Positions 27,731 to 56,524 of a stretch of 64,000 nucleotides of DNA are shown piece after piece. The stretch is from the sequence record NC_134263.1. The stretch is one strand, 5' to 3'. Position 1 is the first letter of the stretch, and every line of letters starts with the position of its first letter. The translations under genes were made by a program, and so were the position numbers. The DNA is from Escherichia phage T5_ev219. The notes under the pieces were generated by a model that worked only from the letters and a program-made list of their open reading frames with translations, was not told the origin of the DNA and did not search any database.

Positions 27731-28078
27731 TTAGTCATAGCACCACCATAATCCACGCTTACGCATGTCATGATCGCGATTATAGTCGTAATTTTCTGGA
27801 TCTTTCATCACGCGGTGGAGTTCTTGACGATTCCCTTGACGAACCATTTTATTAGAGTGCCACTTAACATTCTTACTAATGGAATTCCAGTTATAACCAT
27901 CCTTTTTCTCATTACGAATGGTTGCTTCCTTCATTTCCTGTTCTACATCATCCCAGGATTTAGCATAAATAACACGAATCCAGTAGCCATTTTCTTTGAG
28001 GAAAGAATATTCTTGAGAGAATTGTTCTTTAGACTTCCACCACTGATCACCAGATTGTCTACGATAAGTACGGCTCAT
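27731..28078 (-). CDS. hypothetical protein
   Basis: 115-aa ORF, Trp-rich. Confidence 0.5.
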   Translation of the reverse strand: MSRTYRRQSGDQWWKSKEQFSQEYSFLKENGYWIRVIYAKSWDDVEQEMKEATIRNEKKDGYNWNSISKNVKWHSNKMVRQGNRQELHRVMKDPENYDYNRDHDMRKRGLWWCYD

Positions 28079-28199: not shown

Positions 28200-28514
28200 T
28201 TACAGATCGGGGCGTTCATCTTCGAAACAGCCTGAGCTAATTCCTTCTCCGAATCCTACAAAGCCATCAAATTCGTCATTTGAGATGCCCATAATCATTG
28301 CTTCCATTTTCCTAATTTCCGAGGTTTTCATACCTGCTTTACTATTCTTAAAGTGTTTGCGAGGGTTCCCACACATCCAACAAGAACAGATGCAAGGAGT
28401 AGTAGTGATAATACCTAACCGTTTAGGGCTTTCTTCATGTGGGAAGACTGTCCAATACTTCTTGCGGTTGTTCTTTACACGTTGCCGGTGATGGCGTCTT
28501 AATGCTCGATCCAC
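28200..28514 (-). CDS. hypothetical Cys-containing protein
   Basis: 104 aa; CICSCWMCGN cluster. Confidence 0.45.
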   Translation of the reverse strand: MDRALRRHHRQRVKNNRKKYWTVFPHEESPKRLGIITTTPCICSCWMCGNPRKHFKNSKAGMKTSEIRKMEAMIMGISNDEFDGFVGFGEGISSGCFEDERPDL

Positions 28515-28595
28515 ACATTTCTCCTAAAACTTGGGAGATAAATGGAGTTTGCTCGACTACCTTACGTAGTTCGTAGAAACCGTATCCAAGCCCCA

Positions 28596-28964
28596 TTACA
28601 TCGCCTGAGTAAATGTACGACTAATAACGTCGTTCTGCTGTTCACGCGTCAGTGAGTTAAAACGTACAGCATACCCTGAAACACGGATAGTTAATTGAGG
28701 GTATTTTTCAGGATGTTTCTGTGCATCCAAAAGCTGATCACGACTTAACACATTGACATTTAGGTGCTGACCACCTTCAATTTGAGGGGCGACTTCCACC
28801 TTGACTTCACGGAAGGATTCGGGGTCAAAATGGGGTGTGATACTTTCTAGATCCTCAACCAGAACTTTTTGTTTAAGTTCGCCATTTTTAGAGTACAGTT
28901 GAATAATCTGATTATCATGAACAAGATTAATTACGCCAGACTTAAGATTTTGATATGCTTTCAT
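28596..28964 (-). CDS. autonomous glycyl-radical cofactor, GrcA/YfiD-like
   Basis: 122 aa; C-terminal [11 protein letters not shown]...[23 protein letters not shown] matches the GrcA glycyl-radical domain as recalled. Confidence 0.7.
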
Positions 28965-29006
28965 TAGCTCTCCCCGATGTTAGAAATTGGCTCAGCTCTT
29001 TATTCT

Positions 29007-29238: not shown

Positions 29239-29315
29239 TGGTAGTTAGTAGTGGATTTGAACCACTGTAGTCGCTCCGTATGAAGGAGGTGCATAACCAC
29301 TCTGCCAACTAACTA
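29239..29315 (-). tRNA. tRNA with CAT anticodon (Met, fMet or Ile-lysidine)
   Basis: Manual cloverleaf; loop TTCATAC; CCA encoded. Confidence 0.65.
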
Positions 29316-29409
29316 TTATGTTTTATTAGACTAAGTAAGTATTCTTTATACTCTATAGACCAATTAGCTTTTTTAAACTTTCCTGGACGCATAGTCTTAA
29401 TTCCTAAAT

Positions 29410-29486
29410 TTGGTACTCCGGGAGGGATTTAAACCCCCGATCTCTCGGTTATCAGCCGAGTGCTTTAGATCGCTAAGCTACCGAAG
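29410..29486 (-). tRNA. tRNA-Ile (GAT)
   Basis: Manual cloverleaf; anticodon loop CTGATAA; CCA encoded. Confidence 0.7.
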
Positions 29487-29502
29487 CATTAGAATATTTA
29501 CA

Positions 29503-29793
29503 TCATACACTGTCTAAATAAGAAGTATAATGGAATTTAGCTTCTCCAGTCTTATCTATTTCTACCTCAGTTCGTGGTACTTGACGAACTACACCATGAA
29601 TCATCTTATAGCGAATGCCTTTAGCTGGTTCATGATCTTTTGGAAATACCTGTTTAACCGTTACTACTTTATACTCTTCACGCGGTGTTAACACAACTAC
29701 TTGATCACCTTCTTTGATTTTCCAAGAAGATGGAAATTCATAGGTATATCTTTGACCACCAGTTTGGAATACTACAGAAAGATAACGCTTCAT
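29503..29793 (-). CDS. hypothetical protein
   Basis: 96-aa ORF between tRNA genes. Confidence 0.5.
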   Translation of the reverse strand: MKRYLSVVFQTGGQRYTYEFPSSWKIKEGDQVVVLTPREEYKVVTVKQVFPKDHEPAKGIRYKMIHGVVRQVPRTEVEIDKTGEAKFHYTSYLDSV

Positions 29794-29823
29794 TTGGTTT
29801 CCCTCTCATTAATTTATATAAAT

Positions 29824-29853
29824 ATTATAACAAGAAATAAGAGAGAAGGCAAA
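29824..29853 (-). promoter_or_regulatory. sigma70-type promoter of the conserved family
   Basis: TTGCCT, about 18 bp, TATAAT on minus strand. Confidence 0.5.
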
Positions 29854-29867
29854 TGAATTTTTAAATT

Positions 29868-29942
29868 TGGTGCTCCCACCAGGAATCGAACCCGGTTCAG
29901 ATGCTTACAAGGCAACTGCATCGCCAGCAATGCTTTAGGAGC
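29868..29942 (-). tRNA. tRNA-Thr (TGT)
   Basis: Manual cloverleaf; loop CTTGTAA. Confidence 0.65.
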
Positions 29943-29952
29943 GATAATCCCA

Positions 29953-30117
29953 TTATTTCAACGGGATTTCTTTTTCAATAACAGGAGACTTATCAGTCAT
30001 AACTGTCATTGCCATTTGTTGTAGAAATTCAAAGGTGAAGGCTACACGTTCTTCACCAATCTCTACTTCTACACGTTTCTTTTGTTTATCGATCTTGACT
30101 TTTAGGTTATCAGCCAT
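29953..30117 (-). CDS. small hypothetical protein
   Basis: 54-aa ORF below the track cutoff. Confidence 0.35.
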   Translation of the reverse strand: MADNLKVKIDKQKKRVEVEIGEERVAFTFEFLQQMAMTVMTDKSPVIEKEIPLK

Positions 30118-30361
30118 TAGAGAGTACAGTACTGGTAGTTGGCAATACTACAGATGAAGCAACAGTGTTTAAATGCTTTCTCCAGTCTAGGTTAAATTGT
30201 TTTCGAAACTCTTCATAAGGTTCTTCTGGATAAAAGCTAAAACCTCCTTTCTCGTCATTCAGGATAACAGAGCCGTCAGTTTGTTCGTATGCTCGGTATG
30301 TTTCTCCAATAACAATAATTCGTTTATCGGTACTTTTATTACGAAACTCAAAAACGTGCAT
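30110..30361 (-). CDS. hypothetical protein
   Basis: 83-aa ORF. Confidence 0.45.
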   Translation of the reverse strand: MHVFEFRNKSTDKRIIVIGETYRAYEQTDGSVILNDEKGGFSFYPEEPYEEFRKQFNLDWRKHLNTVASSVVLPTTSTVLSNG

Positions 30362-30377
30362 AATGTTTCCTTAAAGT

Positions 30378-30453
30378 TGGAGCGGCTAGAGGGAATCGAA
30401 CCCTACTCAGCGAGGCTTGGAAGGCCTGCGACACAACCCGTGTGCTTAACCGC
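30378..30453 (-). tRNA. tRNA-Gly (TCC), tentative
   Basis: Manual cloverleaf; good acceptor and T arm; anticodon assignment depends on stem register. Confidence 0.55.
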
Positions 30454-30461
30454 TTATTATT

Positions 30462-30537
30462 TGGCTGGAGAAGGAGGAATCGAACCTACCATTAACGGAG
30501 TCAAAGGCCGTTGTGCTAACCGTTACACTACTCTCCA
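30462..30537 (-). tRNA. tRNA-Gln (TTG)
   Basis: Manual cloverleaf; U1-A72; loop CTTTGAC. Confidence 0.65.
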
Positions 30538-30543
30538 ATAATT

Positions 30544-30619
30544 TGGCTGGGATGCCACGGATCGAACGTGGAACCTTCGGAGTCAGAGGCCGACGATCTG
30601 CCAATTGATCTACATCCCA
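30544..30619 (-). tRNA. tRNA-Gln (CTG)
   Basis: Manual cloverleaf with fully paired arms; loop CTCTGAC. Confidence 0.7.
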
Positions 30620-30632
30620 ATAATTCTTTACT

Positions 30633-30827
30633 CTATGGAAATAGAGTAACTGGCTCAGGTTCTTCAAGGCGCTTACCTTCATGATCTACTCGAATGACTC
30701 CGCATCCTTCGCAAACCACAACTGCACCATAACCTTCTTTGACTTCGGCTTCTGTAATCAGACCAGATAAGTCACCAGTATCTCTGCCCCACATATCAAT
30801 GGAGCATTGTTTGCAGAAATCAGCCAT
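30633..30827 (-). CDS. small Cys-rich protein (zinc-ribbon-like)
   Basis: 64 aa; CKQC...CEGC. Confidence 0.5.
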   Translation of the reverse strand: MADFCKQCSIDMWGRDTGDLSGLITEAEVKEGYGAVVVCEGCGVIRVDHEGKRLEEPEPVTLFP

Positions 30828-30852
30828 AGTTTATTTCCTATTTAAGTTAATT

Positions 30853-30929
30853 TGGGGTGGCTAGTGGAATTCGAATCCACATAGGCCTGATTCACAATCA
30901 GGATCATTAACCAATTATGATATAGCCAC
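30853..30929 (-). tRNA. tRNA-His (GTG)
   Basis: Manual cloverleaf, perfect stems; loop TTGTGAA. Confidence 0.75.
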
Positions 30930-31297
30930 AATTGAAAACTCGCAGGGTTAGCGAAACCATCCTCAATTAGCATGTTCTAGAATACTAATCAAGTTATCTC
31001 CTATTGCACGCAGCTCAAGACGAGTACGAATTTTCAATTGTGGCGGCTCTCAGAAACTCTTCTATTCTAGCCTCAGAAGCTTACCCCCGAACGCATGTCG
31101 GGAAAGTCTTTCCAAGAGCATCAAATAGCACCGTTACACTTTGAGCCATTGATGTATCAAGGAATAGAAGGGCTTGAACCTTCATGAGTTAGACCATTTA
31201 ACTCAACCGCTTTTAAGGTATATTTCTAGGAGTGGATGTTCCTAGTAAACCTATTCGGCAGTCCCGTCTACCAATTCCGGCATATTCCAAGAATTTT

Positions 31298-31471
31298 TTA
31301 TAAACCGGCAGAAGCCTCATTTAAAGCATCAACAATAGCTTCACGCTGGGTCATTCCATACCCGGTGGAGTCTAGGTGAGGCAAATAGGCTGCCCATCCA
31401 TTATCTGTTTCATGAAGGTATGCTTTAAATTTTTTACCATCCTTCATTGTTACAGTAACTGTTTTGCTCAT
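31298..31471 (-). CDS. small protein, HicB-antitoxin-like fold candidate
   Basis: 57-aa ORF with AGGAAT RBS; resemblance weak. Confidence 0.35.
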   Translation of the reverse strand: MSKTVTVTMKDGKKFKAYLHETDNGWAAYLPHLDSTGYGMTQREAIVDALNEASAGL

Positions 31472-31491
31472 AAGGATTCCTTATAGTTAAT

Positions 31492-31581
31492 TGGAGGAAG
31501 GTAATGGAGTCGAACCATCACCGTATCACTACAGCGGGCTAGTTTTCAAGACTAGTTGCGTACCACTACGCCCTACCTTCC
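31492..31581 (-). tRNA. tRNA-Ser (TGA), class II
   Basis: 90 nt; perfect acceptor; loop CTTGAAA; long variable arm. Confidence 0.75.
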
Positions 31582-31588
31582 ATTTGTT

Positions 31589-31679
31589 TGGCGGAAGAGG
31601 AGAGATTTGAACTCTCAAGCCGTTTTACCAGTCAGCCACTTTCCAAGCGGTTTTCGTCGCCAATTCGATTTGCTCTTCC
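31589..31679 (-). tRNA. class II tRNA, probably Ser (GGA)
   Basis: 91 nt; perfect acceptor and T arm; anticodon stem partly paired. Confidence 0.55.
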
Positions 31680-31791
31680 AATAATAAGATGATGCCTCTA
31701 TCATACCAGGCAGTTACGCCTCGCTGGGATTCGAACCCATTAAAACAGCTCAACCGAGATAGTAGGTTTAATTTACTCTGACCATCAAATT

Positions 31792-31868
31792 TGGTGCGTG
31801 ACAAGGGATTCGAACCCTCAAAACCCGACTTCTAAGGACGGTATGTATGCCAATTCCATCAATCACGC
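31792..31868 (-). tRNA. tRNA with TAG anticodon (Leu codon CUA) but short variable loop
   Basis: 77 nt; good acceptor, D, anticodon and T arms; 5-nt variable region. Confidence 0.55.
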
Positions 31869-31873
31869 GTATT

Positions 31874-31952
31874 TGGTGGAGGATAACGAATTCGAATCGT
31901 TCTGATGTCCTCGGTGCAAGCGAGGTGTCCACTCCCAGCAGACCCATCCCCC
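31874..31952 (-). tRNA. tRNA-Ala (TGC)
   Basis: Perfect anticodon stem; loop CTTGCAC. Confidence 0.7.
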
Positions 31953-32238
31953 AAATTCTTTAGTTTACTAAGGCTATTAGCTCGGCGTAACTACAGCACC
32001 TTCGCTTCGAGCGGAAGGAACTGCGTCATCTCGCAAACCCAATACACTATTCAGTTGCCGCTGAATCTAGTGGACTAATCTAGAACTTCTCCCAAATCGT
32101 AGGAATCGTGCTTTTTGGCAGCCAGTCCTAGGTCGAGCTAATACCTTAGTGAACTATGATGAGGATTTCTCCCCATCAATTTATATAAATATTATAACAA
32201 GAAATTAAGCATTAAGCAACTGCGTTTTTTCTTGAAAT

Positions 32239-32317
32239 TGGTAGATCGCCTGGGACTCGAACCCAGAACCTTCCGATTAAAAGTCGGATGCTACTAAACC
32301 TATTGAGCTAGCGACCT
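32239..32317 (-). tRNA. tRNA-Lys (TTT)
   Basis: Perfect anticodon stem; loop CTTTTAA. Confidence 0.7.
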
Positions 32318-32318
32318 A

Positions 32319-32486
32319 TTAGTAACCATTATATACTTCTTTAATAGAGTGGACTTTTAAATAGGGATGATTAGTATTAAACTCTACCATTACTTCATCC
32401 CAATTTTTACCATAATGGGCAAGTAAGGATTTTGATGTATTCTTACCTAAACGTTTGTCACTTACTACTAATCGAAATACTTTCAT
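32319..32486 (-). CDS. small hypothetical protein
   Basis: 55-aa ORF with GAGGAT RBS. Confidence 0.4.
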   Translation of the reverse strand: MKVFRLVVSDKRLGKNTSKSLLAHYGKNWDEVMVEFNTNHPYLKVHSIKEVYNGY

Positions 32487-32506
32487 TTCGAAATCCTCTA
32501 TTAAAA

Positions 32507-32584
32507 TGGAAGCGGGTGCAGGAATCGAACCTACCTCTTTCTAGCTTATGAGACTAGTGATCTCTACCAGAGATCTAACCCGCA
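32507..32584 (-). tRNA. tRNA with CAT anticodon, unpaired 1:72 (initiator-like)
   Basis: Loop CTCATAA; D stem GATC/GATC; U1-U72 mismatch. Confidence 0.6.
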
Positions 32585-32590
32585 ATTGTT

Positions 32591-32669
32591 TGGTCTCCGT
32601 GGGAGGATTTGAACCCCCGACCCTATCGCCCCAAACGAAACGCTCTGACCAAACTGAGCTACACGGAGA
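32591..32669 (-). tRNA. tRNA-Pro (TGG)
   Basis: Perfect acceptor; loop TTTGGGG. Confidence 0.65.
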
Positions 32670-32672
32670 ATA

Positions 32673-32831
32673 TTATTTCTTCAACCACAACAAAGATAAG
32701 CCCAGCATACTAAAGCCGCTAACTAATCCGATACCTTTTTCTTCTATAGTAAAAGTATCTAGATTAAATGCTGTTATAGCTATTGGCATACACCATAATG
32801 CCATAAAAACTTGAGCTATCTTGTGTTTCAT
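32673..32831 (-). CDS. small hydrophobic protein
   Basis: 52-aa ORF with GGAAGG RBS behind a family promoter. Confidence 0.4.
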   Translation of the reverse strand: MKHKIAQVFMALWCMPIAITAFNLDTFTIEEKGIGLVSGFSMLGLSLLWLKK

Positions 32832-33042
32832 TTTGCTTTCCTTCCCTTCACTTTATAAGATATATTATACAGAGAATTAAGCAGAATAGCAAATGAATTT
32901 TTAATAAATTTACTTATTGTGTAGGCCACCTGGAGGCTATGAACCCCACGGCTGACAAAGAAGTTTGCGAGACCTCTCTTAAATGCCAGAATAGACCCGC
33001 CGATCTATCGGAACCTACATAATAAGTAAACTTTATAGTGTC

Positions 33043-33162
33043 ATTCTAGACAGGATTCGAACCTGTTATCACTTGTGCGGACTTACGAGAACCATTCTTT
33101 CACTCGAATCGAACGAGCTTCTGCCCTCGCCAAGTTGGTTTCCCCATCAACCACGCTAGAAT
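33043..33162 (-). other. 120-nt tRNA-like structured element (two T-arm-like hairpins inside a 7-bp closing stem)
   Basis: CTAGAAT/ATTCTAG pair at the ends; internal GGTTCGAATCC-like and TTCGATT hairpins. Confidence 0.3.
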
Positions 33163-33284
33163 GTTTGATTGTTTTCAGTGCAAGAGTCCGAGTCTTGGAC
33201 ACGACCGCTTCGCAAGTACATAGGCAGCTTATCATGAGTCAGCACTTCCGAATTGCTAGCTCCGTGTTCTGCACTGAAATTTTA

Positions 33285-33641
33285 TTAGTTTAACCGTAAA
33301 GTATTATCTACTTCACCATTAATTGTTCGGCATTCCTCTGGGATTGCCGGGGTGGCCTTGTATTCCCACCACTCAGCACCATCATATTCCCCACGTTCTA
33401 GCCAAGTTCCATCGGCAAACCATACATTACCATAAAGTAATTGTCCACCGTATCCAGAATCATATTCAAAGTCTAGGTTATTAAGAAAATCCTCAATATC
33501 TTCTTCTGCATAACCTAAAGGTAATACCCAAACTTTTTTATCCCCATAATACCCGAATTCTATTTTAATACACTTAACTTCAGAATTAGTATTTTTTAAG
33601 GCAAGTAACAGCTCTTCTTTAGCATTACGCATATTACGCAT
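33285..33641 (-). CDS. hypothetical protein
   Basis: Track ORF 33285..33728 trimmed to Met30 because the N-terminal extension runs into tRNA-Asp. Confidence 0.5.
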   Translation of the reverse strand: MRNMRNAKEELLLALKNTNSEVKCIKIEFGYYGDKKVWVLPLGYAEEDIEDFLNNLDFEYDSGYGGQLLYGNVWFADGTWLERGEYDGAEWWEYKATPAIPEECRTINGEVDNTLRLN

Positions 33642-33666
33642 AATATATTCCCATACTGGATTAATT

Positions 33667-33743
33667 TGGCGCGACCGATGGGATTTGAACCCACATTCTC
33701 TCCCGTGACAGGGGAGTACCATTACCAAGCCAGCCCCGGTCGC
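33667..33743 (-). tRNA. tRNA-Asp (GTC)
   Basis: Perfect acceptor; loop CTGTCAC. Confidence 0.75.
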
Positions 33744-33752
33744 ATAATTTAT

Positions 33753-33938
33753 TTACTCAGCTTTGAGTTTTTCAATAGCTGCATTAAGTTCTTTAAGAAA
33801 CTCTTTTCGTACATTAAGACGATTGAGACTTACTAGTATATCATGTTTAAGTTCTTCGATGTATTTCTTTTCAACTTCAATATTGTTGATAGTGCTATCA
33901 CGATGAACTTCTAACTGTGCAATTACATTCTTGGACAT
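33753..33938 (-). CDS. hypothetical coiled-coil protein
   Basis: 61-aa ORF. Confidence 0.4.
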   Translation of the reverse strand: MSKNVIAQLEVHRDSTINNIEVEKKYIEELKHDILVSLNRLNVRKEFLKELNAAIEKLKAE

Positions 33939-34040
33939 GCTTGTTTCCTCAGTTATTAATGAAAATGGTATCTGTGGCTGAATTCGATGTCAGCAATGAT
34001 AGCTGGTTGGCTACCGGTTTACTTAACTCTACACAGAATT

Positions 34041-34118
34041 TGGCGGTTCCTGCTGGATTCGAACCAGCAACCCTCAACTTAACAAGATGCCGCTCTAACC
34101 AATTAGAGCTAAGGAACC
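34041..34118 (-). tRNA. tRNA-Asn (GTT), tentative
   Basis: Perfect acceptor, D and T arms; weak anticodon stem; loop TTGTTAA. Confidence 0.55.
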
Positions 34119-34613
34119 ATATAAGTCAGAACTAGAGTTAATACGTTCTAGATATTTACTAAGATCCCTAGAATTTATACTAAACCACTCATGTTCTTTT
34201 AAATCTTTGAAATACTGGTGAATTAGTTTTTCACCTTTTCGTTTGTCAAACCAAAAAGACCAATGCTCTAACTTATAATCCCTATAAGGGGAATAAGTCT
34301 GATATTGAGCTAATCTCTCTTTTGGATTTTGACTCATACCTATTTTATACTGATTTTTCCATGCAGGATTACTAATACAGTATACAAAACCTTCAGAAAT
34401 AGGAAGTTTATTTTCCTGCTTAAACTTTATAAAGGAAAGTGCAGCAAGTTTTCTCGAATACATAGTATTTGTATTCTTTTTGGTATTACCATTGGTTCCT
34501 GAAAGATTTATATATTCTTCCATAAATCTCTGGATTAGTTCTGCGGTTATATAGAAGGGCTCATTAGTAACAACGCCTTTCTTTACCAAACTATCAAAAA
34601 CTTTTGTATGCAC
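34095..34613 (-). CDS. GIY-YIG-like domain protein
   Basis: 172 aa; GFVYCISNP...YKIGMSQNP..R pattern; last 7 codons and stop overlap the 5' end of tRNA-Asn. Confidence 0.55.
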   Translation of the reverse strand: MHTKVFDSLVKKGVVTNEPFYITAELIQRFMEEYINLSGTNGNTKKNTNTMYSRKLAALSFIKFKQENKLPISEGFVYCISNPAWKNQYKIGMSQNPKERLAQYQTYSPYRDYKLEHWSFWFDKRKGEKLIHQYFKDLKEHEWFSINSRDLSKYLERINSSSDLYGSLALIG

Positions 34614-34633
34614 TACTTCTTTCCTTTAGTAAT

Positions 34634-34709
34634 TTGGACGACCGCATGAGATTTGAACTCACATAAAAAGGATTTGCAATCCTTCGCCTAAGCCATTCAG
34701 CCAACGGTC
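34634..34709 (-). tRNA. tRNA-Cys (GCA)
   Basis: Loop TGCAAAT. Confidence 0.65.
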
Positions 34710-34897
34710 GATTTATCTTGTTTTTCGAGATCTTCAAATTCTAAATCATTGAAGTTCCCTAGAGTACGGGAGTAGAACCCGTCTCCTGCGTCATAGCCTG
34801 ATTTGCCACAATCACACATTTTAAATTCACGAAGATGTGTGAAAATATGCTCAGAACCACAACACTTAAATCTAACTAATCGTTTCATTAGTTTCAT
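34697..34897 (-). CDS. small zinc-ribbon-like protein
   Basis: 66 aa; CCGSEH...CDCG; 3' end overlaps tRNA-Cys 5' end. Confidence 0.45.
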   Translation of the reverse strand: MKLMKRLVRFKCCGSEHIFTHLREFKMCDCGKSGYDAGDGFYSRTLGNFNDLEFEDLEKQDKSTVG

Positions 34898-34946
34898 TAG
34901 CTTCTCCAGTTCAATTTATATAATTATTATATAGAACTTTTGGAAA

Positions 34947-35231
34947 CTAAGCAACTACATTTTTTAAGAATTTGATGTCTTTCTTCTTCTTATATTTCCA
35001 CGTTAATGGATTCTGTCGATTGTGAACGCTTGAGATCTTCGTCTCGTCAAAGTTCTTCAATATCATGTAATCACAAGATAATTGTTCTAATGGAATGTGA
35101 TCACCGTCAAAAGCATATACATAAGGCTGTTGACTAGCACGATAATGATAGACTTTGTTAATTCTACGTTTCAGCGACTTATCAGCGCAGTAAATAAAGA
35201 AGTTTTCAGGATGCATCAGCATCTCCTTCAA
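34947..35231 (-). CDS. hypothetical protein
   Basis: 94-aa ORF. Confidence 0.45.
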   Translation of the reverse strand: MKEMLMHPENFFIYCADKSLKRRINKVYHYRASQQPYVYAFDGDHIPLEQLSCDYMILKNFDETKISSVHNRQNPLTWKYKKKKDIKFLKNVVA

Positions 35232-35233
35232 TT

Positions 35234-35308
35234 TGGTGCACCCTGTTCGTATCGAACGAACCTCTCAAGCTCTTCAGGCAAGCGCTAATCCATCTCAGCT
35301 AAAGGTGC
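35234..35308 (-). tRNA. tRNA-Phe (GAA), tentative
   Basis: Good acceptor and T arm; loop CTGAAGA; partial anticodon stem. Confidence 0.55.
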
Positions 35309-35315
35309 AAATTTT

Positions 35316-35391
35316 GGCAAACCTACTAGGACTCGAACCTAGACCGTACGGTTTTGGAGACCGACATGCTGTCCAGTAACACTCTAGGAAT
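35316..35391 (-). tRNA. tRNA-like, Trp (CCA) anticodon arm but unpaired acceptor stem (possible pseudogene)
   Basis: Good D, anticodon and T arms and 3' CCA; 5' and 3' acceptor strands not complementary. Confidence 0.35.
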
Positions 35392-35399
35392 GCAGAAAT

Positions 35400-35476
35400 T
35401 GGCGTCCTGTGCGGGGATCGAACCCGCAAATCCTACCTTGAAAGGGTAGTGACTTTACCAGTTTGTCTAACAGGAC
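35400..35476 (-). tRNA. tRNA-Glu (TTC)
   Basis: Perfect acceptor and anticodon stems; loop CTTTCAA. Confidence 0.7.
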
Positions 35477-35483
35477 TTAAATT

Positions 35484-35574
35484 TGGTGTTGGATGATGGA
35501 GTCGAACCACCCGAGACCCTTCCGAGTCGGCAGATTTACAGTCTGCTTCGCTACCTCTACGATACTAATCCAAC
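35484..35574 (-). tRNA. tRNA-Tyr (GTA), class II
   Basis: 91 nt; perfect acceptor; anticodon stem GCAGA/TCTGC; loop CTGTAAA. Confidence 0.7.
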
Positions 35575-35702
35575 ATATTTAAAAGTATTCAAATACTAGT
35601 TTAAACACTTTTAAATATGTTTCCGAATTAGATAACTATTATACCAAGTTTTAAGGCACTGAGCAAGTCAAATTTTAAAGAACTTGCTCAGTGCTGTATT
35701 AG

Positions 35703-35978
35703 TTAGTCGAACTTAGGAGTGACAGTTAAGGAGAACGGAAGTTCGAAAACTTCTTCGCCCTCATTACTAACGGTAACTACACGACCTTTAAGTTCAGACA
35801 TTAAAATATCAATATCAGCTTTTGCATCTGGAGCCATGCCAGCTTCAATACATTTAGCTTTAACTTCCGGTAAAAGCTCTACGTTATAGAGATAGAGCCA
35901 CTCAATCTCACCTTCCCAGTCTTCCCAGGATTTGCAGATTGCACTTTCAATACCAGTTGCTACAACACGATTTTGCAT
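35703..35978 (-). CDS. hypothetical protein
   Basis: 91-aa ORF behind a family promoter. Confidence 0.5.
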   Translation of the reverse strand: MQNRVVATGIESAICKSWEDWEGEIEWLYLYNVELLPEVKAKCIEAGMAPDAKADIDILMSELKGRVVTVSNEGEEVFELPFSLTVTPKFD

Positions 35979-36068
35979 TAATTAACTCCTTCATCAATTT
36001 ATATAACTATTATACCAGAAATTTAAAGTAAAAGGCAAGTACATTTTTAAAAATTCTGTTTGGAGGAG

Positions 36069-36275
36069 CTAAACTCCAGATTTTTCGGCCAAGTCTAGAC
36101 TAATAAGAGTTATAGCCATAATTGCTGCACCGTGTTCTTTTTCTCCGGTGTTTTTAGCAGAGTCTATAATATCCTTAATCTGTTCGTAATAACTTTTTAC
36201 TTCTTGTTCAATGCCTGCCTCGGCTATCATGCCTTTAGCCATGAATCGTTGCATGGTAATTTCAGGATTAGCCAT
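36069..36275 (-). CDS. hypothetical protein
   Basis: 68-aa ORF. Confidence 0.45.
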   Translation of the reverse strand: MANPEITMQRFMAKGMIAEAGIEQEVKSYYEQIKDIIDSAKNTGEKEHGAAIMAITLISLDLAEKSGV

Positions 36276-36450
36276 GTTGTTTCTCCAGTTTCATTTTTAA
36301 TAGTTTACAGATGAAATCAACGTCTTCATCTGTGCCTAAGTCTCTATCCTCAAGGGTCGCCTTGAAGTTTTTCGTCAATTCCATGAGGATGATTTCCCTA
36401 GAACGACGTGTTGGCGGAGGTGGATGTCTATACATCTTATTTCCTTAATT

Positions 36451-36527
36451 TGGTAGGGGTGGTGGGATTCGAACCCACAAAACCTGAATTTTAAGTCCAG
36501 TACCTATGCCAATTCGATTACACCCCC
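36451..36527 (-). tRNA. tRNA with TAA anticodon (Leu codon UUA) but short variable loop
   Basis: 77 nt; good acceptor, anticodon and T arms; D-loop AATTGGCATA shared with 31792..31868. Confidence 0.55.
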
Positions 36528-36628
36528 GTGTAATCAGTTTATTAGTTGATACATATTATAGCCTAAAGAAAACCCTACTACTAATCCTACTAACCAACCA
36601 ATATAATAATCTTTTAATTTCACGGGTG

Positions 36629-36814
36629 TCAACCTCGTTCAATATCTAGAGAAATACCACAGGTAGGATTAATGCCTGTGCCTTTGCACGTCGGACAAAC
36701 CCAGATATTACAGAATGTATCCCCTGCTTCTGCATCAGAACTTTCTCCAACTCCTAGACAGTCAGGACAGGCACATTCTTCTAGCTCTTGCTTGAGTTCT
36801 TGAAACTTAGACAT
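36629..36814 (-). CDS. small zinc-ribbon protein
   Basis: 61 aa; CACPDC...CPTCKG. Confidence 0.5.
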   Translation of the reverse strand: MSKFQELKQELEECACPDCLGVGESSDAEAGDTFCNIWVCPTCKGTGINPTCGISLDIERG

Positions 36815-36823
36815 ATAGTTTCC

Positions 36824-37012
36824 TTATTCAATTACTTTTGAGGCTTCAAGGGAGTCGATATAGTGTACGTTTTCTACCATAATCATATAATCTGCCACTT
36901 TATCCATAGCCTGAGCTTCAGAGGTAGCCCTGGCTAACCTATATCCTTTTTTATATTCATCCGGGTATTCCCTATCTGGAATAAACACAACATAAACTAG
37001 GTATAGTTCCAC
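36824..37012 (-). CDS. hypothetical protein
   Basis: 62-aa ORF. Confidence 0.4.
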   Translation of the reverse strand: MELYLVYVVFIPDREYPDEYKKGYRLARATSEAQAMDKVADYMIMVENVHYIDSLEASKVIE

Positions 37013-37033
37013 TTGTAACCCCTCTAATTAAAC

Positions 37034-37111
37034 TGGTGGCTCCCCGAGGATTCGAACCTACGTACCTTCCGGTTATGAGCCGGGTGCTCATACCATATGA
37101 GCTTGAGAACC
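37034..37111 (-). tRNA. tRNA with CAT anticodon, E. coli fMet-like anticodon arm
   Basis: Anticodon arm CCGG-CTCATAA-CCGG; D stem GCTC/GAGC; weak T stem. Confidence 0.5.
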
Positions 37112-37117
37112 AGAATT

Positions 37118-37206
37118 TGGCGGAAGAAGTGGGAATCGAACCCACAAGGCTATATTTCAAACCGACAGATTAGCAATCTGCTGCAATACCGTTATGCTAT
37201 TCTTCC
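37118..37206 (-). tRNA. tRNA-Ser (GCT), class II
   Basis: 89 nt; perfect acceptor; loop TTGCTAA. Confidence 0.65.
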
Positions 37207-37310
37207 GAATTTATAAGATATATTATATTAGAAATTTAGCTTCATAGCAAGAAAATTTTTCAAGTTTTCGGTAGACATCTCATCCACATCTACAGGAGAA
37301 ACAAATCCAT

Positions 37311-37745
37311 TTAATTGTCTAGCAAATTTTCACCAGCAGGATCATTATCCCCAACAGCTACCAATTTAAAAGGTAATAATTTCAGTTGCTTTAATAACGC
37401 TTTTCCTGGAGAAGAACCCAACATTGCTAGGGCTGGATAACCAGCGTTATGTAACGCAACTGCCTTAAATACAGATTCAGCGATCAATACTACTTTTTCA
37501 TCTCCATTGAGAGTTTCTAGTCCCCATACACACTGGGTAGTAGAATAAGTAAAATATTTAGCTTCAAAGGGACACTTACCATGACCTTTTGGAGCAGAAG
37601 GATTATAAGTTTGATAGCCCCTCAACATCCCAGAGAAGTCATACAACGGGACTGTTAGCCATCCTTCCGGACTTAACCAGCAATGATATTTTTCTGTATC
37701 AAATCCTCTAGATAAGAGGTGCTGTGTTAGCTCATCAACATTCAT
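37311..37745 (-). CDS. Toprim-domain protein (primase-like C-terminal fragment)
   Basis: Track ORF trimmed to Met18 because Met1 lies inside the promoter; LIAESV...ALHNAG...AMLGSS...VGDNDPAG resembles DnaG Toprim motifs. Confidence 0.45.
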   Translation of the reverse strand: MNVDELTQHLLSRGFDTEKYHCWLSPEGWLTVPLYDFSGMLRGYQTYNPSAPKGHGKCPFEAKYFTYSTTQCVWGLETLNGDEKVVLIAESVFKAVALHNAGYPALAMLGSSPGKALLKQLKLLPFKLVAVGDNDPAGENLLDN

Positions 37746-37920
37746 ATCTGGTTCCTCTCTCAAATTTATAGATATATTATACAGAGAATTTAGCATTCAA
37801 GCAATCAAATTTTTTAACTTTTTAGAGGAAAATCATAGGGCACTTAAGGGCAGCAGATAAGTGGTGAGGACCAAAATTTGTGACCCCACTAAAAATCCGG
37901 GGGCAATTTTTAAAGACCCT

Positions 37921-37949
37921 TTGACATTTTCGCCGGGGTAGTGTAAAGT
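37921..37949 (+). promoter_or_regulatory. sigma70-like promoter for the plus-strand cassette
   Basis: TTGACA, 17-bp spacer, TAAAGT. Confidence 0.45.
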
Positions 37950-38011
37950 ATATGTTATGGATGAGTGATCAAAGAGACACACATTTTCTATATACTAGGA
38001 GGTGTCAAAAA

Positions 38012-38992
38012 ATGACAGAAGAAGTAGCTAAGAGTCCTGAGACCGTCGCTAGCGTAGCAGCAGAACTGCATCGTCACGAGGAATCAGATAAGAAAAAGTG
38101 GGAGAAGGTCAGAGCCTACGAAGAAGAACATCGTGAACACGATGATAAAGATGAAGAAGATGACGATGATGTACGTTGTCATAAATATGGAAAATATAAA
38201 ATGCAAGAACCAGTAAACGTATTTACTAACGGCTTCCCTGGCATGGGTGCATTCCCAGCTAACGCAAGTGCTTTCGGTGGAGAAGGTATGGGTCTATTCG
38301 GAGCTATCCTAATCGGTGCTCTATTAACCGGCGGATTTGGTGGTTTTGGTGGTTTTGGTCGTGGTGCTGGCGTTGCCGCTGAAGGAACCGCTGTGGACGC
38401 GATCCTTTCTAACCAGGATACTGCAAGTATTCTAGCTGCAATCAATACTACTCGTACAGAAGCTAACCAGGGCACTGGGGCTGTTCTAAGTGCAGTAAAC
38501 GGTGTGGGAGCTGCTCAAGCTGCTAGCACTCAGCAAGTTCTGACTACTATCTACGGTACAGGTGCTAATCTGTCAAACCAGATCTGTGCTGAAACTCGTA
38601 ACGTTATTCAGGGTCAGTTCGATCTTTCTCGTCAGATGGATCAATCTTTCGCTGCTAACCAGATAGCACGTGCTCAAGATAAGTTTGACTCTGCTCAGAT
38701 TGCTTTCCAGCAGTCTATTCAGACCAACAACCAGTTTGCCGCTGTTCAGGCTCAGATGTGCGCTAACCAGAACGCTATCGAACGTCAGCTTGCTGAATGT
38801 TGCTGTGAGCTTCAGACTGCGATCGCTGGTGTAACTACTGCACGTATCCAGGACGAACTGAATGAATGCCGTCTGCGCGAAGCAATCGCTGCAGGTAGCG
38901 GTGCAAATGGTCAGGTAATCAACCAAATCGCTGTAAGTCTTGGTGCTATCACTCAGACTCTGGCTGGTCTGCAGGCTAAACTGCCGGCTTAA
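38012..38992 (+). CDS. Gly/Ala/Gln/Asn-rich low-complexity protein with central hydrophobic Gly-rich segment
   Basis: Track ORF trimmed to MTEEVAK with AGGAGG RBS; acidic N-terminus, GMGLFGAILIGALLTGGFGGFGGFG segment, Q/A/N-rich C-terminus with ECCCEL. Confidence 0.6.
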   Translation: MTEEVAKSPETVASVAAELHRHEESDKKKWEKVRAYEEEHREHDDKDEEDDDDVRCHKYGKYKMQEPVNVFTNGFPGMGAFPANASAFGGEGMGLFGAILIGALLTGGFGGFGGFGRGAGVAAEGTAVDAILSNQDTASILAAINTTRTEANQGTGAVLSAVNGVGAAQAASTQQVLTTIYGTGANLSNQICAETRNVIQGQFDLSRQMDQSFAANQIARAQDKFDSAQIAFQQSIQTNNQFAAVQAQMCANQNAIERQLAECCCELQTAIAGVTTARIQDELNECRLREAIAAGSGANGQVINQIAVSLGAITQTLAGLQAKLPA

Positions 38993-39013
38993 AATTAAGG
39001 GGAGGAGCCCATT

Positions 39014-39430
39014 ATGAGTAAATATGGTTTTGTGAACAACGGATTTAATCAACCAATGGGCTCCCAGCAGCCCGTTCCGGGTCTGGATAATCCTTACCTA
39101 CAACAGTTGCAACAGCGTTTAGCAGAAGCGCAACAGATGCAGCAACAACTCCAGCAAAACCCTGGAAGTGTGAGTCCTATGCAAATGATGCAGCAAATGA
39201 GCGGGCAGTCGCAAATGCCTCAACAAATGCATCAACAGGTGACTCAGCAGCAAGTTCAGCAGCAAACCCAACAACCGCAGGTTTCTGCGGAAGGACAGGC
39301 AGTACTAGCCCTTTTCGAAGACTTCGCAAAGACAGAGGATGGGAAGCAGCTTGTATCACTTATGGGTAAGTTTAATAGCTTCTGCCAAAGCCAAATTGCA
39401 AAAGCTCAAAATAGCGGTAATAACTCCTAA
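39014..39430 (+). CDS. glutamine-rich low-complexity protein
   Basis: 138 aa; GGGAGG RBS; poly-Q/QQ-rich middle. Confidence 0.55.
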   Translation: MSKYGFVNNGFNQPMGSQQPVPGLDNPYLQQLQQRLAEAQQMQQQLQQNPGSVSPMQMMQQMSGQSQMPQQMHQQVTQQQVQQQTQQPQVSAEGQAVLALFEDFAKTEDGKQLVSLMGKFNSFCQSQIAKAQNSGNNS

Positions 39431-39439
39431 GGAGGAATT

Positions 39440-39634
39440 ATGTGTTGCAGAAAATCTGTTTCGTGCTGCCCAATGCCTGTAGCACGTTGTTGCTCTCCAG
39501 CAATGTTTACGCAAATACCGGCGTTCAATCCGTTTGCCTTTAAGCCTACTCTTATCCTGCCCCCTAGAGTAGATTTTCAGTCAAGATTGGCCTCCCGTAT
39601 GGGTGGTTGCTGTAACAAGAGTATATGGTTCTAA
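39440..39634 (+). CDS. Cys-rich small protein with four CC doublets
   Basis: 64 aa; AAGGAGG RBS; MCCRK..SCCP..RCCSP...GGCCNK. Confidence 0.5.
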   Translation: MCCRKSVSCCPMPVARCCSPAMFTQIPAFNPFAFKPTLILPPRVDFQSRLASRMGGCCNKSIWF

Positions 39635-39649
39635 GGAACCAAACAATAA

Positions 39650-39686
39650 AGCCCCTAGTCGAAAGACTTAGGGGCTTTTCTTTTAT
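39650..39686 (+). terminator. rho-independent terminator of the plus-strand cassette
   Basis: GC-rich hairpin followed by TTTTCTTTT. Confidence 0.7.
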
Positions 39687-39687
39687 C

Positions 39688-39735
39688 TTAAATACAGAAA
39701 AGCCCTGCGCTCTCCAGGGAACGCAGGGCTTACTT
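39688..39735 (-). terminator. rho-independent terminator downstream of SPFH gene
   Basis: 8-bp stem gccctgcg/cgcagggc then U-run on minus strand. Confidence 0.65.
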
Positions 39736-39754
39736 CGAATATTACGTGTGGGTA

Positions 39755-40702: not shown

Positions 40703-40736
40703 ATATTTCCTTTGTTTTAGTTACAGTTAATAAAAT

Positions 40737-40811
40737 TGGCCGAGGTGACAGGATTCGAACCTGCATAAAGGAATTTAGAAGACTCCTGCCTCTCCCTTAG
40801 ACTACACCCCG
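40737..40811 (-). tRNA. tRNA-Arg (TCT)
   Basis: Anticodon stem GGAGT/ATTCC; loop CTTCTAA; CCA encoded. Confidence 0.65.
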
Positions 40812-41313
40812 TTTAAGTATTTTTAAGAACTCTCGTAAAAACTCTTAAAAATACAGACGATACCGGGAGAGTCATAAGTCTCACTCATTAAGTATTTCAA
40901 GACAAAATACAGTAACGTCTATTATTTTCCAGTTTAAGTCAGGGTGACTTAGTGGTTATGTCCTGCGGTATATTGAGGACTCGGTTAGGCTTGGGGTCAT
41001 GACTTCCCGCCTTTTGCTGCTACTCAACAGGAGTTATCGCGAATTACCTGTGCTATTGTGCACCATTAGTGACATCTCTCATGTCAGCATTTCCCACTTT
41101 GTGGATAGCTTGAAAAACTACTCCGATATGGAGAAAGAACTTCACTATCCTAGAATACCTTCTAAAGTTCTTCTTTAGCCTGGACATAGTTAAATCGTAA
41201 TAAAACTATTCAGCAGACTGGTTGGTTAGTCTGGAACCAACTACCGCGTGGTTTAGGCAGTGCGCAACTAACCTCGGAAGCTTTTACGTTAAAAGCATCA
41301 GTTATCCAGTTCT

Positions 41314-41385
41314 TACCGACCGTAGGATTCGAACCTACATCTTCCACCAGTTACGGCTTGGTAATACCAATTATACTAGGACGGC
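41314..41385 (-). tRNA. tRNA-like element (no encoded CCA; possible pseudogene)
   Basis: T arm GTAGG-TTCGAAT-CCTAC; acceptor with one mismatch; non-canonical anticodon loop. Confidence 0.3.
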
Positions 41386-54649: not shown

Positions 54650-56524
54650 ATGAATCGCAATGAAGAACTAAAGTATAAAGAAATGCAGGCGTTAATTAGA
54701 AACTGCAAAGAGATTATCGAAGGGTCAGCAGATGAAGAGCTGCTGTTTAATAATGCCAATAAACCCTCAGAACGTTTCCCTACACAAAGGGATATGCTTG
54801 CAGGTGAATTGAGTAAGTATCTGATTCTAGAAGAAATGCCAATTCAGATTCGAAATGCTCATATGATTGGGGATATTCATTTCCATGATGCTGATTATGC
54901 TGCATTAGGTATGACTAACTGTTGTCTGGTAGCTTTGGAAGATATGTTGAAGAATGGTATGAAGGTTGGTAATGCTGAAATTAGCACTCCAAACTCTATC
55001 ACTACTGCGGCGGCTATTACTGCTCAGATTATCACTCAGGTTAGCTCCCACCAGTATGGTGGTACTTCTGTAGATCGTCTTGATGAAGTATTGGCTCCTT
55101 ATGTTCGTAAGTCTTATGATAAGAATCATGCGTTTGCAAAACGTTGGACTAAGGATGAAGCCAAAGCATCAGTAATGGCTACTGAGATGACTGAAAAAGA
55201 AGTCTATGATGCTTGTCAGGGTCTAGAGTATGAAATCAATACGATGTTCAACTCTAATGGTCAGAGTCCATTTATTACCTTTGGTTTTGGTCTAGGAACT
55301 TCTTGGGAAGCACGTCTAGTACAGAAAGCAATACTGAAAGTACGTATGGATGGTTTAGGTATCAATAAACGTACAGCTATCTTTCCGAAACTGGTGTTTG
55401 TTCTGCGTGATGGCGTAAATATGAAGCCAGGAGATGTTAATTATGACGTCAAGAAGTTAGCTATGAAATGTACTGCTGAACGTATGTATCCAGATTATAT
55501 CAGCTATGATAAGGTTGTGGAAGTTACTGGGGACTATAAAGTTTCTATGGGCTGCCGTTCATTCCTAGCTGCTACAGAAGATGGTGAAACTGCCGGTCGT
55601 AATAACTTAGGTGTTGTTTCTGTAAACTTGCCTAGAATTGCTATCGAAGCTGAAGGAAATATTGACCTATTCTTTGATTTGCTTGAGCTACGTGTAGATA
55701 CAGCATTAAAAGCGTTGGAGTGGAGAGTTGATCGCTTAAAATACATTCAAGCTAAAGCTGCACCCATCCTCTATATGTCAGGAGCCTTTGGGTTACGCTT
55801 GGAGCCTGATGAATATGTATTCGATCATTTCTATAACCGTGCTTCTGTATCTCTAGGGTATATTGGTTGCCATGAAATGCTACAGTTCATGTTTGGCAAA
55901 GATGTAGACACAATGTCCGAGACCTGCATCAAGTTTGTTCAGCGTGTATTGCAGTACATGCGGGATAGAGTCGATCAGAAGAAGGAAGAAACTAAGTTAG
56001 GTTATAGCCTGTATGCTACACCATCAGAATCCCTATGTGATCGTTTTTGTCGTCTAGACCGTGAATATTTCCCGGAGCATGAAGATATTCTGTCTAAAGG
56101 ATACTACACTAACTCGCACCACCTTGATGTAGAACGCAAAGTTGCTCCCAATGTGAAATTTGATTATGAATCTAATTTTACTCCGATTGCTTCTGGTGGG
56201 TGCATTTCCTATGTAGAACTACCAGATATGAAACGATTCCCAGATGCACTGGAATGGGTTATTAATTATGCTGCTAGTAAAGTTCATTACTTCGGTATTA
56301 ATACTCCAGTGGATTCTTGTAGTAAATGTGGATTCTTAGGTGAAACAATAGCATCCGAAGATGGATTTAAGTGCCCTATCTGTGGTAATCATGACCCCGA
56401 AACTCTTGAAGTAACTCGTCGAGTTTGTGGGTATCTTGGAAATCCGGGTGCTCGTCCATTTAACCCCGGCAAACAGCACGAGGTGATGGGCAGAGTGAAA
56501 CATCAGGATATTCGAGCTAAATAA
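54650..56524 (+). CDS. nrdD: anaerobic ribonucleoside-triphosphate reductase (class III)
   Basis: 624 aa; C-terminal glycyl-radical motif RVCGYLGNP; Cys pairs CSKCG...CPICG. Confidence 0.85.
   Translation: MNRNEELKYKEMQALIRNCKEIIEGSADEELLFNNANKPSERFPTQRDMLAGELSKYLILEEMPIQIRNAHMIGDIHFHDADYAALGMTNCCLVALEDMLKNGMKVGNAEISTPNSITTAAAITAQIITQVSSHQYGGTSVDRLDEVLAPYVRKSYDKNHAFAKRWTKDEAKASVMATEMTEKEVYDACQGLEYEINTMFNSNGQSPFITFGFGLGTSWEARLVQKAILKVRMDGLGINKRTAIFPKLVFVLRDGVNMKPGDVNYDVKKLAMKCTAERMYPDYISYDKVVEVTGDYKVSMGCRSFLAATEDGETAGRNNLGVVSVNLPRIAIEAEGNIDLFFDLLELRVDTALKALEWRVDRLKYIQAKAAPILYMSGAFGLRLEPDEYVFDHFYNRASVSLGYIGCHEMLQFMFGKDVDTMSETCIKFVQRVLQYMRDRVDQKKEETKLGYSLYATPSESLCDRFCRLDREYFPEHEDILSKGYYTNSHHLDVERKVAPNVKFDYESNFTPIASGGCISYVELPDMKRFPDALEWVINYAASKVHYFGINTPVDSCSKCGFLGETIASEDGFKCPICGNHDPETLEVTRRVCGYLGNPGARPFNPGKQHEVMGRVKHQDIRAK

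What the first reader, a model, noticed from the sequence alone, without database searches (positions are those of the whole stretch)
28596..28964. Phage-encoded GrcA-like glycyl-radical spare-part protein, with nrdD but no nrdG in the window
The C-terminal 60 residues match the glycyl-radical domain of E. coli GrcA almost motif for motif. The phage also encodes a class III RNR (54650-56524) with its own glycyl-radical C-terminus. I see no radical-SAM activase (CxxxCxxC protein) anywhere in the window, so both proteins would depend on host activases; the GrcA-like protein could repair oxygen-cleaved host pyruvate formate-lyase or even NrdD.
Basis: partly seen in the sequence, partly recalled or inferred. 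Interest (0 to 1): 0.55.

Follow-up and report, generated by a model that had tools for sequence, protein, structure and literature searches.

The report
Phage T5-type GrcA spare-part protein
This T5-like phage carries a small copy of the radical-bearing tail of the host enzyme pyruvate formate-lyase, a "spare part" gene already annotated in T5-like phages and shown to work for the phage T4 version in 2001, so the finding is real but ordinary.

Summary
The ORF at 28596-28964 (minus strand, 122 aa) is a genuine GrcA/YfiD-type autonomous glycyl-radical cofactor. Its last 62 residues are 79-81% identical to E. coli GrcA, T4 Y06I (vs.6) and the PflB C-terminus, and the RVSGYAV radical loop is identical. 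The window is a Tequintavirus (T5-like; 97.6% to Salmonella phage VSe12). The gene is 96% identical in T5 itself and is already annotated there and in about 440 T5-like records. T4 Y06I and E. coli YfiD were shown in 2001 to rebuild oxygen-cleaved pyruvate formate-lyase after activation by host PFL-AE.

nrdD (54650-56524) is confirmed. No NrdG or PflA homologue exists in the window or in the complete genome of the closest relative. nrdD-only phages were already noted in 2013.

A 104-aa ORF two genes downstream (28200-28514) has the motif, but its first Cys is not conserved, it is too short, and it has no radical-SAM similarity.

Repair of NrdD is not supported: the protein has no similarity to the phage NrdD C-terminus.

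Verdict: a known auxiliary metabolic gene, low interest.

The parts
28596..28964 (-). grcA-like CDS, 122 aa (autonomous glycyl-radical cofactor, T5 type)
   Evidence: ORF. Pfam Gly_radical 3.5e-18. TIGR04365 GrcA 8.7e-36, 123 bits, below the 170 cutoff. PDB 6owr 5.7e-31. Annotated 'autonomous glycyl radical cofactor' in VSe12.
28599..28784 (-). Glycyl-radical domain, residues 61-122; equivalent to PflB 698-759 and GrcA 66-127
   Evidence: HMMER alignments to PflB and GrcA. 79-81% identity. 41 invariant columns across 39 phage and bacterial homologues. The AF2 model's beta-hairpin plus C-terminal helix hits 6owr and 2pfl.
28665..28685 (-). RVSGYAV radical loop (residues 94-100); predicted radical site Gly97 at 28674-28676
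   Evidence: Identical heptamer in GrcA, T4 vs.6 and PflB (G734).
28785..28964 (-). N-terminal half (residues 1-60): phage-type 'MKAYQ' start with a T5-lineage insertion
   Evidence: Alignments A1 and A3. Predicted beta-strands at pLDDT about 67-77. Only the phage family phrog_1209 covers the full length.
28970..28973 (-). Shine-Dalgarno GGAG, 5 nt upstream of the ATG
   Evidence: Minus-strand sequence GGGGAGAGCTAATG.
28435..28596 (-). Downstream 53-aa ORF whose start overlaps the grcA-like stop (TAATG); same transcription unit, function unknown
   Evidence: phrog_31464.
28200..28514 (-). 104-aa basic Cys-motif protein (PCICSCWMCGNPRK); the only real gene in the window with CxxxCxxC; not an activase
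   Evidence: Regex scan. No Pfam hit. Found in T5-like phages only. C41 is not conserved; the invariant residues are C43, C45 and C48.
54650..56524 (+). nrdD, class III ribonucleotide reductase, 624 aa, no ATP-cone; radical Gly594 (56429-56431); Zn-ribbon CSKC and CPIC
   Evidence: Pfam NRDD 1.5e-172. 54% identity to E. coli NrdD starting at its residue 113. Motif positions.

Best explanation
The ORF encodes a phage version of the autonomous glycyl-radical cofactor GrcA/YfiD. It is a free-standing copy of the last ~60 residues of host pyruvate formate-lyase (PflB).

Proposed mechanism (inferred here from homology; shown experimentally for E. coli YfiD and T4 Y06I):
1. In a host growing with little oxygen, O2 cleaves active PflB at Gly734.
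2. The phage protein binds the truncated PflB and supplies a replacement beta-strand, Gly loop and C-terminal helix.
3. Host PFL-activating enzyme (PflA) converts its Gly97 to a glycyl radical.
4. The complex resumes converting pyruvate and CoA to acetyl-CoA and formate.

This would keep fermentative ATP and acetyl-CoA supply running during infection. I infer that it matters because T5 shuts off host gene expression, so the host could no longer replace PflB or GrcA.

The gene is an early-region auxiliary metabolic gene. It is conserved across T5-like phages and shared with T4-like, jumbo and Vibrio phages. Separately, the phage's NrdD relies on the host's NrdG, because the phage has no activase of its own.
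For: - Sequence: Gly_radical domain; best PDB hits GrcA 6owr and PflB; 76% identity to GrcA over 74 aa; 81% to PflB 698-759, with RVSGYAV identical.
- Conservation: all 41 invariant family columns are present.
- Fold: the model's C-terminal hairpin and helix match 6owr and 2pfl.
- Orthology with the validated phage protein: T4 vs.6 (Y06I) is 53.5% identical over the full length and shares the MKAYQ N-terminus. Both fall in phrog_1209 territory.
- Literature: YfiD and T4 Y06I restore activity to O2-cleaved PFL after radical installation by PFL-AE (PMC8683613, citing Wagner 2001).
- Selection: the gene is kept at 80% identity or more in about 440 phage records, including T5.
- Expression signals: it has an SD and a translationally coupled downstream ORF.
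- No phage activase; regex scans.
- Established knowledge (not tested here): the RVSGYAV heptapeptide alone is a substrate of PFL-AE.
Against: - No biochemical data exist for the T5-type protein.
- It scores below NCBIfam's GrcA equivalog cutoff (123 against 170 bits) because its N-terminal half differs from bacterial GrcA. In YfiD that half matters for binding cleaved PFL and for activation. However, the validated T4 Y06I is also below the cutoff (153 bits).
- Nine of the 62 C-terminal positions are unique to the T5 type.
- The benefit to the phage is inference only.
Confidence: 0.85

Rival explanations
1. The protein is a spare part for the phage's (or host's) class III ribonucleotide reductase NrdD. 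It would replace the NrdD C-terminus lost after O2 cleavage, or relay a radical to NrdD in the absence of NrdG.
For: The phage has nrdD but no nrdG. PMC8683613 speculates that spare parts might exist for other glycyl-radical enzymes.
Against: - There is no detectable similarity to the phage NrdD C-terminus (E=6).
- The protein lacks the NrdD CxxC...CxxC Zn-ribbon and the RVCGYLG loop.
- It is 81% identical to PflB's C-terminus.
- T4 has the same gene alongside nrdD and nrdG, so its presence is not tied to the absence of nrdG.
Confidence: 0.03
2. The protein is a decoy or modulator. It would soak up host PFL-AE, or bind intact PflB or TdcE to redirect or inhibit host fermentation rather than repair it. 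Alternatively, it is a drifting relic with no function.
For: The N-terminal half differs from bacterial GrcA and is predicted to be partly folded. It scores below the GrcA equivalog cutoff. No direct assay exists.
Against: - Strong purifying conservation of every catalytic-domain column, including the radical Gly, across hundreds of phages, argues against a relic.
- The closest phage homologue tested (T4 Y06I) repairs PFL rather than inhibiting it.
Confidence: 0.08
3. The neighbouring 104-aa CxxxCxxC protein (28200-28514) is a miniature phage activase for the GrcA-like protein and/or NrdD.
For: It carries C-x3-C-x2-C and lies two genes downstream on the same strand.
Against: - The first Cys (C41) is replaced in distant family members. 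The conserved motif is CSCxMC, that is C43, C45 and C48.
- Only about 55 residues follow the motif, whereas the smallest known activase, NrdG, is about 154 aa.
- There is no Pfam radical-SAM hit at E<0.1.
- There is no tblastn similarity to NrdG or PflA.
Confidence: 0.01

Closest known systems
Bacteriophage T4 Y06I (gene vs.6), autonomous glycyl-radical cofactor
   Same: A phage-encoded protein of about 120 aa. It is 53.5% identical over the full length and 81% in the last 62 aa, with the same MKAYQ N-terminus and an identical RVSGYAV loop. It was shown to reconstitute O2-fragmented PFL (Wagner 2001).
   Different: - The T5 type has a lineage-specific N-terminal insertion ([13 protein letters not shown]) and nine unique substitutions in the C-terminal domain.
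- The T4 C-terminal domain is almost the same as E. coli GrcA.
- T4 also encodes NrdG; T5-like phages do not.
E. coli GrcA (YfiD), PDB 6owr
   Same: Same size and two-part layout. The C-terminal domain is 79% identical, with the same radical loop and fold.
   Different: The N-terminal 50-60 residues are not alignable by BLAST. In the phage protein they are predicted to be beta-rich, whereas they are disordered by NMR in YfiD. The phage protein is below the TIGR04365 cutoff.
C-terminal glycyl-radical domain of pyruvate formate-lyase PflB (residues 698-759; PDB 2pfl, 1h16)
   Same: 81% identity, including the TFTQxM end and the LLDA motif, which match PflB better than GrcA. The fold also matches.
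   Different: It is a free-standing 122-aa protein without the 690-residue catalytic barrel.
nrdD-only phages (class III RNR without an nrdG activase)
   Same: The window has nrdB-nrdA, phoH, then nrdD, and no nrdG. This is the layout described for T5, SPC35 and EPS7.
   Different: None. It is the same lineage.

Membership tests
GrcA/YfiD autonomous glycyl-radical cofactor (InterPro IPR011140 / TIGR04365) | Small (~14 kDa) stand-alone protein | tested here: met
   122 aa, with its own SD and stop.
GrcA/YfiD autonomous glycyl-radical cofactor (InterPro IPR011140 / TIGR04365) | C-terminal glycyl-radical domain with an RVSGYAV loop and the radical Gly in context | tested here: met
   Pfam Gly_radical 3.5e-18. 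RVSGYAV at residues 94-100, identical to GrcA and PflB.
GrcA/YfiD autonomous glycyl-radical cofactor (InterPro IPR011140 / TIGR04365) | Close mimicry of the PflB C-terminus (the part lost on O2 cleavage, plus beta10) | tested here: met
   50/62 residues identical to PflB 698-759. HMMER E=2e-27. Fold hit to 2pfl.
GrcA/YfiD autonomous glycyl-radical cofactor (InterPro IPR011140 / TIGR04365) | Score above the curated NCBIfam equivalog cutoff (170 bits) | tested here: not met
   123 bits. The shortfall comes from the divergent N-terminal half. The experimentally validated T4 Y06I also fails at 153 bits, while E. coli GrcA scores 234. The cutoff therefore defines bacterial GrcA, not the function.
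GrcA/YfiD autonomous glycyl-radical cofactor (InterPro IPR011140 / TIGR04365) | Radical installation by PFL-AE and rescue of O2-cleaved PFL | not testable with these tools
   Shown only for YfiD and T4 Y06I. Here it is inferred from sequence identity of the loop.
Phage GrcA-like family (phrog_1209) | Full-length match to the phage family profile | tested here: met
   E=2.4e-48, residues 1-122 against profile positions 1-121 of 121.
Glycyl-radical-enzyme activase (radical SAM: NrdG/PflA) - sought in the window and genome | Homology to NrdG or PflA, and a conserved CX3CX2C motif near the N-terminus of a protein of 150 aa or more | tested here: not met
   tblastn best E is 0.24 or worse in the window and in the complete VSe12 genome. 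The only real gene with the motif is 104 aa, its C41 is not conserved, and it has no Pfam hit.
Class III ribonucleotide reductase NrdD (54650-56524) | NRDD catalytic domain, C-terminal Zn-ribbon and RVCGYLG glycyl loop | tested here: met
   Pfam NRDD 1.5e-172. 54% identity to E. coli NrdD. CSKC, CPIC and G594.

The most novel reading that the evidence does not exclude
The T5-type protein may not be a simple YfiD copy. Its distinct N-terminal half, possibly folded and beta-rich, could give it a different recognition specificity. For example, it might dock onto intact or differently damaged PflB or TdcE. It might also serve as a pre-charged radical reservoir that lets a host-shut-off cell keep several glycyl-radical enzymes, conceivably including the activase-less phage NrdD, running through oxygen pulses.
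Probability: 0.05. Interest if true: 0.55.

Novelty: already known. Interest (0 to 1): 0.1.

Why it matters
The finding adds little. It illustrates a known theme: lytic enterobacterial phages carry auxiliary genes (GrcA-like, NrdD, NrdAB, PhoH) that keep anaerobic or microaerobic host metabolism and dNTP supply running in the gut, while relying on host radical-SAM activases. The one open point is biochemical. No T5-type protein has been assayed, and its N-terminal half differs from both validated spare parts, so it could help show how the N-terminal region recognises damaged PFL.

Tried and rejected
1. Search for a phage activase.
- tblastn with E. coli NrdG, E. coli PflA and T4 NrdG against the window and the complete VSe12 genome found nothing.
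- A six-frame CX3CX2C regex gave three ORFs in the window. Two lie antisense to, or inside, real genes at 38-39 kb.
- The third, 28200-28514, was followed up with Pfam, PHROGs, a homologue search and an alignment, and rejected as an activase.

2. NrdD spare-part idea. BLASTP of the GrcA-like protein against the phage NrdD found no similarity.

3. Promoter and terminator scan of 27-30.5 kb. Counts were no different from shuffles, so it was uninformative.

4. Literature search for T5-specific work on this protein or on T5 nrdD/nrdG. The search for nrdD, nrdG and 'bacteriophage T5' together returned no papers, and the search for 'autonomous glycyl radical cofactor' with 'phage' listed no title about T5.

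5. Housekeeping. re-fetched loci that were already available, because I misread how files are stored. They had no scientific content.

Full report
**What is there**

The finding's coordinates coincide exactly with a 122-aa ORF on the minus strand: ATG at 28962-28964 and TAA at 28596-28598. A GGAG Shine-Dalgarno lies 5 nt upstream. The stop overlaps the start of the next small ORF (TAATG), which points to a co-translated early operon. The gene sits at the downstream end of a cluster of 23 tRNA genes on the same strand.

**Where the window comes from**

The window is a T5-like phage (Demerecviridae, Tequintavirus).
- The 4-kb surroundings are 97.6% identical to Salmonella phage VSe12, and 479 phage records match.
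- In VSe12 the orthologous CDS is annotated 'autonomous glycyl radical cofactor GrcA'.
- A neighbouring protein is 100% identical to one from Escherichia phage T5_ev219.

**Checking the observation**

The protein matches the glycyl-radical family at every level tested.
- Pfam Gly_radical, E=3.5e-18.
- Best NCBIfam hit TIGR04365 GrcA, E=8.7e-36.
- Best PDB sequence hits are E. coli GrcA 6owr (5.7e-31) and PflB (2e-27), aligned to the very C-terminus of each.
- BLASTP against E. coli GrcA gives 76% identity over 74 residues.
- The last 62 residues are 79% identical to GrcA and 81% to both T4 vs.6 and PflB 698-759. The radical loop RVSGYAV (residues 94-100, Gly97 at 28674-28676) is identical in all four.
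- In an alignment of 39 phage and bacterial homologues, 41 columns of this domain are invariant.
- An AlphaFold2 model (mean pLDDT 71) places Gly97 at the tip of a beta-hairpin followed by a C-terminal helix. Its only significant PDB fold matches are YfiD (6owr) and PFL (2pfl, 1cm5).

**The second half of the observation**

nrdD at 54650-56524 is real.
- Pfam NRDD scores 1.5e-172.
- It is 54% identical to E. coli NrdD, but without the N-terminal ATP-cone.
- It has the Zn-ribbon cysteines CSKC and CPIC, and RRVCGYLG with Gly594.

No activase is encoded.
- tblastn with E. coli NrdG, E. coli PflA and T4 NrdG finds nothing better than E=0.24 in the window or in the complete 109.6-kb genome of VSe12. 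That covers the part of the genome outside the window.
- No nrdG is annotated in VSe12.

A six-frame scan finds the motif in one genuine gene, 28200-28514 (minus strand, 104 aa, 'PCICSCWMCGNPRK'), two ORFs downstream of the grcA-like gene. Two other hits are antisense artefacts. This protein is not a radical-SAM enzyme, for four reasons.
- It has no Pfam hit.
- It is confined to T5-like phages.
- Only about 55 residues follow the motif.
- In its family alignment the first Cys (C41) is replaced in distant members, and the invariant set is C43, C45 and C48, i.e. CSCxMC.

**How it most likely works**

The protein is a free-standing copy of the part of PflB that is lost or displaced when oxygen cleaves the active enzyme at Gly734.

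For E. coli YfiD and the T4 homologue Y06I, Knappe's group showed that the small protein is radicalised by host PFL-AE and that it restores activity to cleaved PFL (Wagner et al. 2001, as summarised in PMC8683613). Later work showed that YfiD residues 61-127 duplicate PFL 693-759, and that the N-terminal half helps binding and activation.

The T5-type protein keeps the entire C-terminal module, so the same mechanism is the best-supported reading. This step is inferred from homology; it was not shown for this protein.

Why a phage would carry it is also inference. A phage-supplied spare part would sustain fermentative energy and acetyl-CoA supply in microaerobic gut conditions. The anaerobic RNR would similarly sustain dNTP supply.

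**NrdD and the host activase**

Lacking nrdG, the phage NrdD must use host NrdG. This fits the sequence of its 25-residue glycyl loop, which is 21/25 identical to E. coli NrdD. T4 NrdD, which travels with its own NrdG, is only 14/25 identical.

**Rivals**

- Repair of NrdD is not supported. There is no similarity between the GrcA-like protein and the phage NrdD C-terminus (E=6), and it has no Zn-ribbon and no RVCGYLG loop. T4 carries the same gene together with nrdD and nrdG, so the gene does not compensate for a missing activase.
- A decoy, inhibitor or relic role cannot be excluded without biochemistry. It is disfavoured by strict conservation of the catalytic module in about 440 T5-like records at 80% identity or more, and by the behaviour of T4 Y06I.
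- The mini-activase idea for the 104-aa neighbour is rejected, as set out above.

**Comparison with what is known, and membership**

The protein meets the structural definition of a GrcA-type spare part: a small stand-alone protein that mimics the PflB C-terminus, with the radical Gly in context. It matches the phage family phrog_1209 end to end.

It fails NCBIfam's curated equivalog cutoff for bacterial GrcA (123 against 170 bits). So does the experimentally validated T4 Y06I (153 bits), while E. coli GrcA scores 234. The shortfall lies in the N-terminal half, which BLAST cannot align to bacterial GrcA.

That N-terminal half shares the MKAYQ start with T4 and other phage versions, carries a T5-lineage insertion, and is predicted with moderate confidence to be beta-structured. 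The YfiD N-terminus is disordered by NMR.

**Novelty**

None of substance.
- The T5 orthologue (95.9% identical) is annotated 'pyruvate formate-lyase related protein'. Many relatives are annotated 'autonomous glycyl radical cofactor'.
- Homologues occur in 1583 phage records (T5-like, T4-like, jumbo and Vibrio phages) and in thousands of bacterial clusters.
- The nrdAB-phoH-nrdD layout of T5, SPC35 and EPS7, and the existence of many nrdD-only phages, were described in 2013 (PMC3653736).
- What remains untested is the biochemistry of the T5-type protein itself.

**Verdict**

The NrdD-repair speculation is not supported. Interest is low.

Noticed in passing
window 28200-28514 (-): A 104-aa basic, Cys-motif protein (RALRRHHRQRVKNNRKKYW...PCICSCWMCGNPRK) with its own SD and a GTG start. 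It is confined to T5-like phages and has no Pfam family. Invariant residues are C43, C45 and C48 plus the basic N-terminus. It may be a small zinc- or nucleic-acid-binding protein; function unknown.
   Followed up: partly
window 28435-28596 (-) and 28200-28514 (-); P0077 (Yersinia phage phiR2-01): The 53-aa ORF overlaps the 104-aa ORF by 80 nt in another frame. In phiR2-01 the first ~26 residues of the 53-aa ORF are fused in frame to the 104-aa family, giving a 121-aa protein. The pair may therefore be a single unit differing by a frameshift, or the 53-aa ORF may be over-called.
   Followed up: partly
window 29239-41386 (-): A cluster of 23 tRNA genes interspersed with tiny ORFs, typical of T5. 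It includes an odd tRNA called Ser with anticodon ACT at 41313-41386; VSe12 annotates a 'tRNA-OTHER' in this part of the cluster.
   Followed up: no
window 57281-58105 (+): A Sir2-family protein (Pfam SIR2, 9e-24) encoded about 750 nt downstream of nrdD on the same strand. VSe12 annotates it only as hypothetical.
   Followed up: no
window 54650-56524 (+): The phage NrdD lacks the N-terminal ATP-cone; its alignment to E. coli NrdD starts at residue 113. Its glycyl loop is more host-like (21/25) than that of T4 NrdD (14/25).
   Followed up: partly
window 28785-28964 (-), residues 1-60 of the GrcA-like protein: AlphaFold2 predicts a four- to five-strand beta-meander (pLDDT ~67-77) for the N-terminal half, which carries a T5-lineage insertion. 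The corresponding half of E. coli YfiD is disordered by NMR. No significant fold match was found for this part.
   Followed up: partly
window 27731-28078 (-): A DUF7295 protein (Pfam, 6.3e-54) in the same early gene block; function unknown.
   Followed up: no
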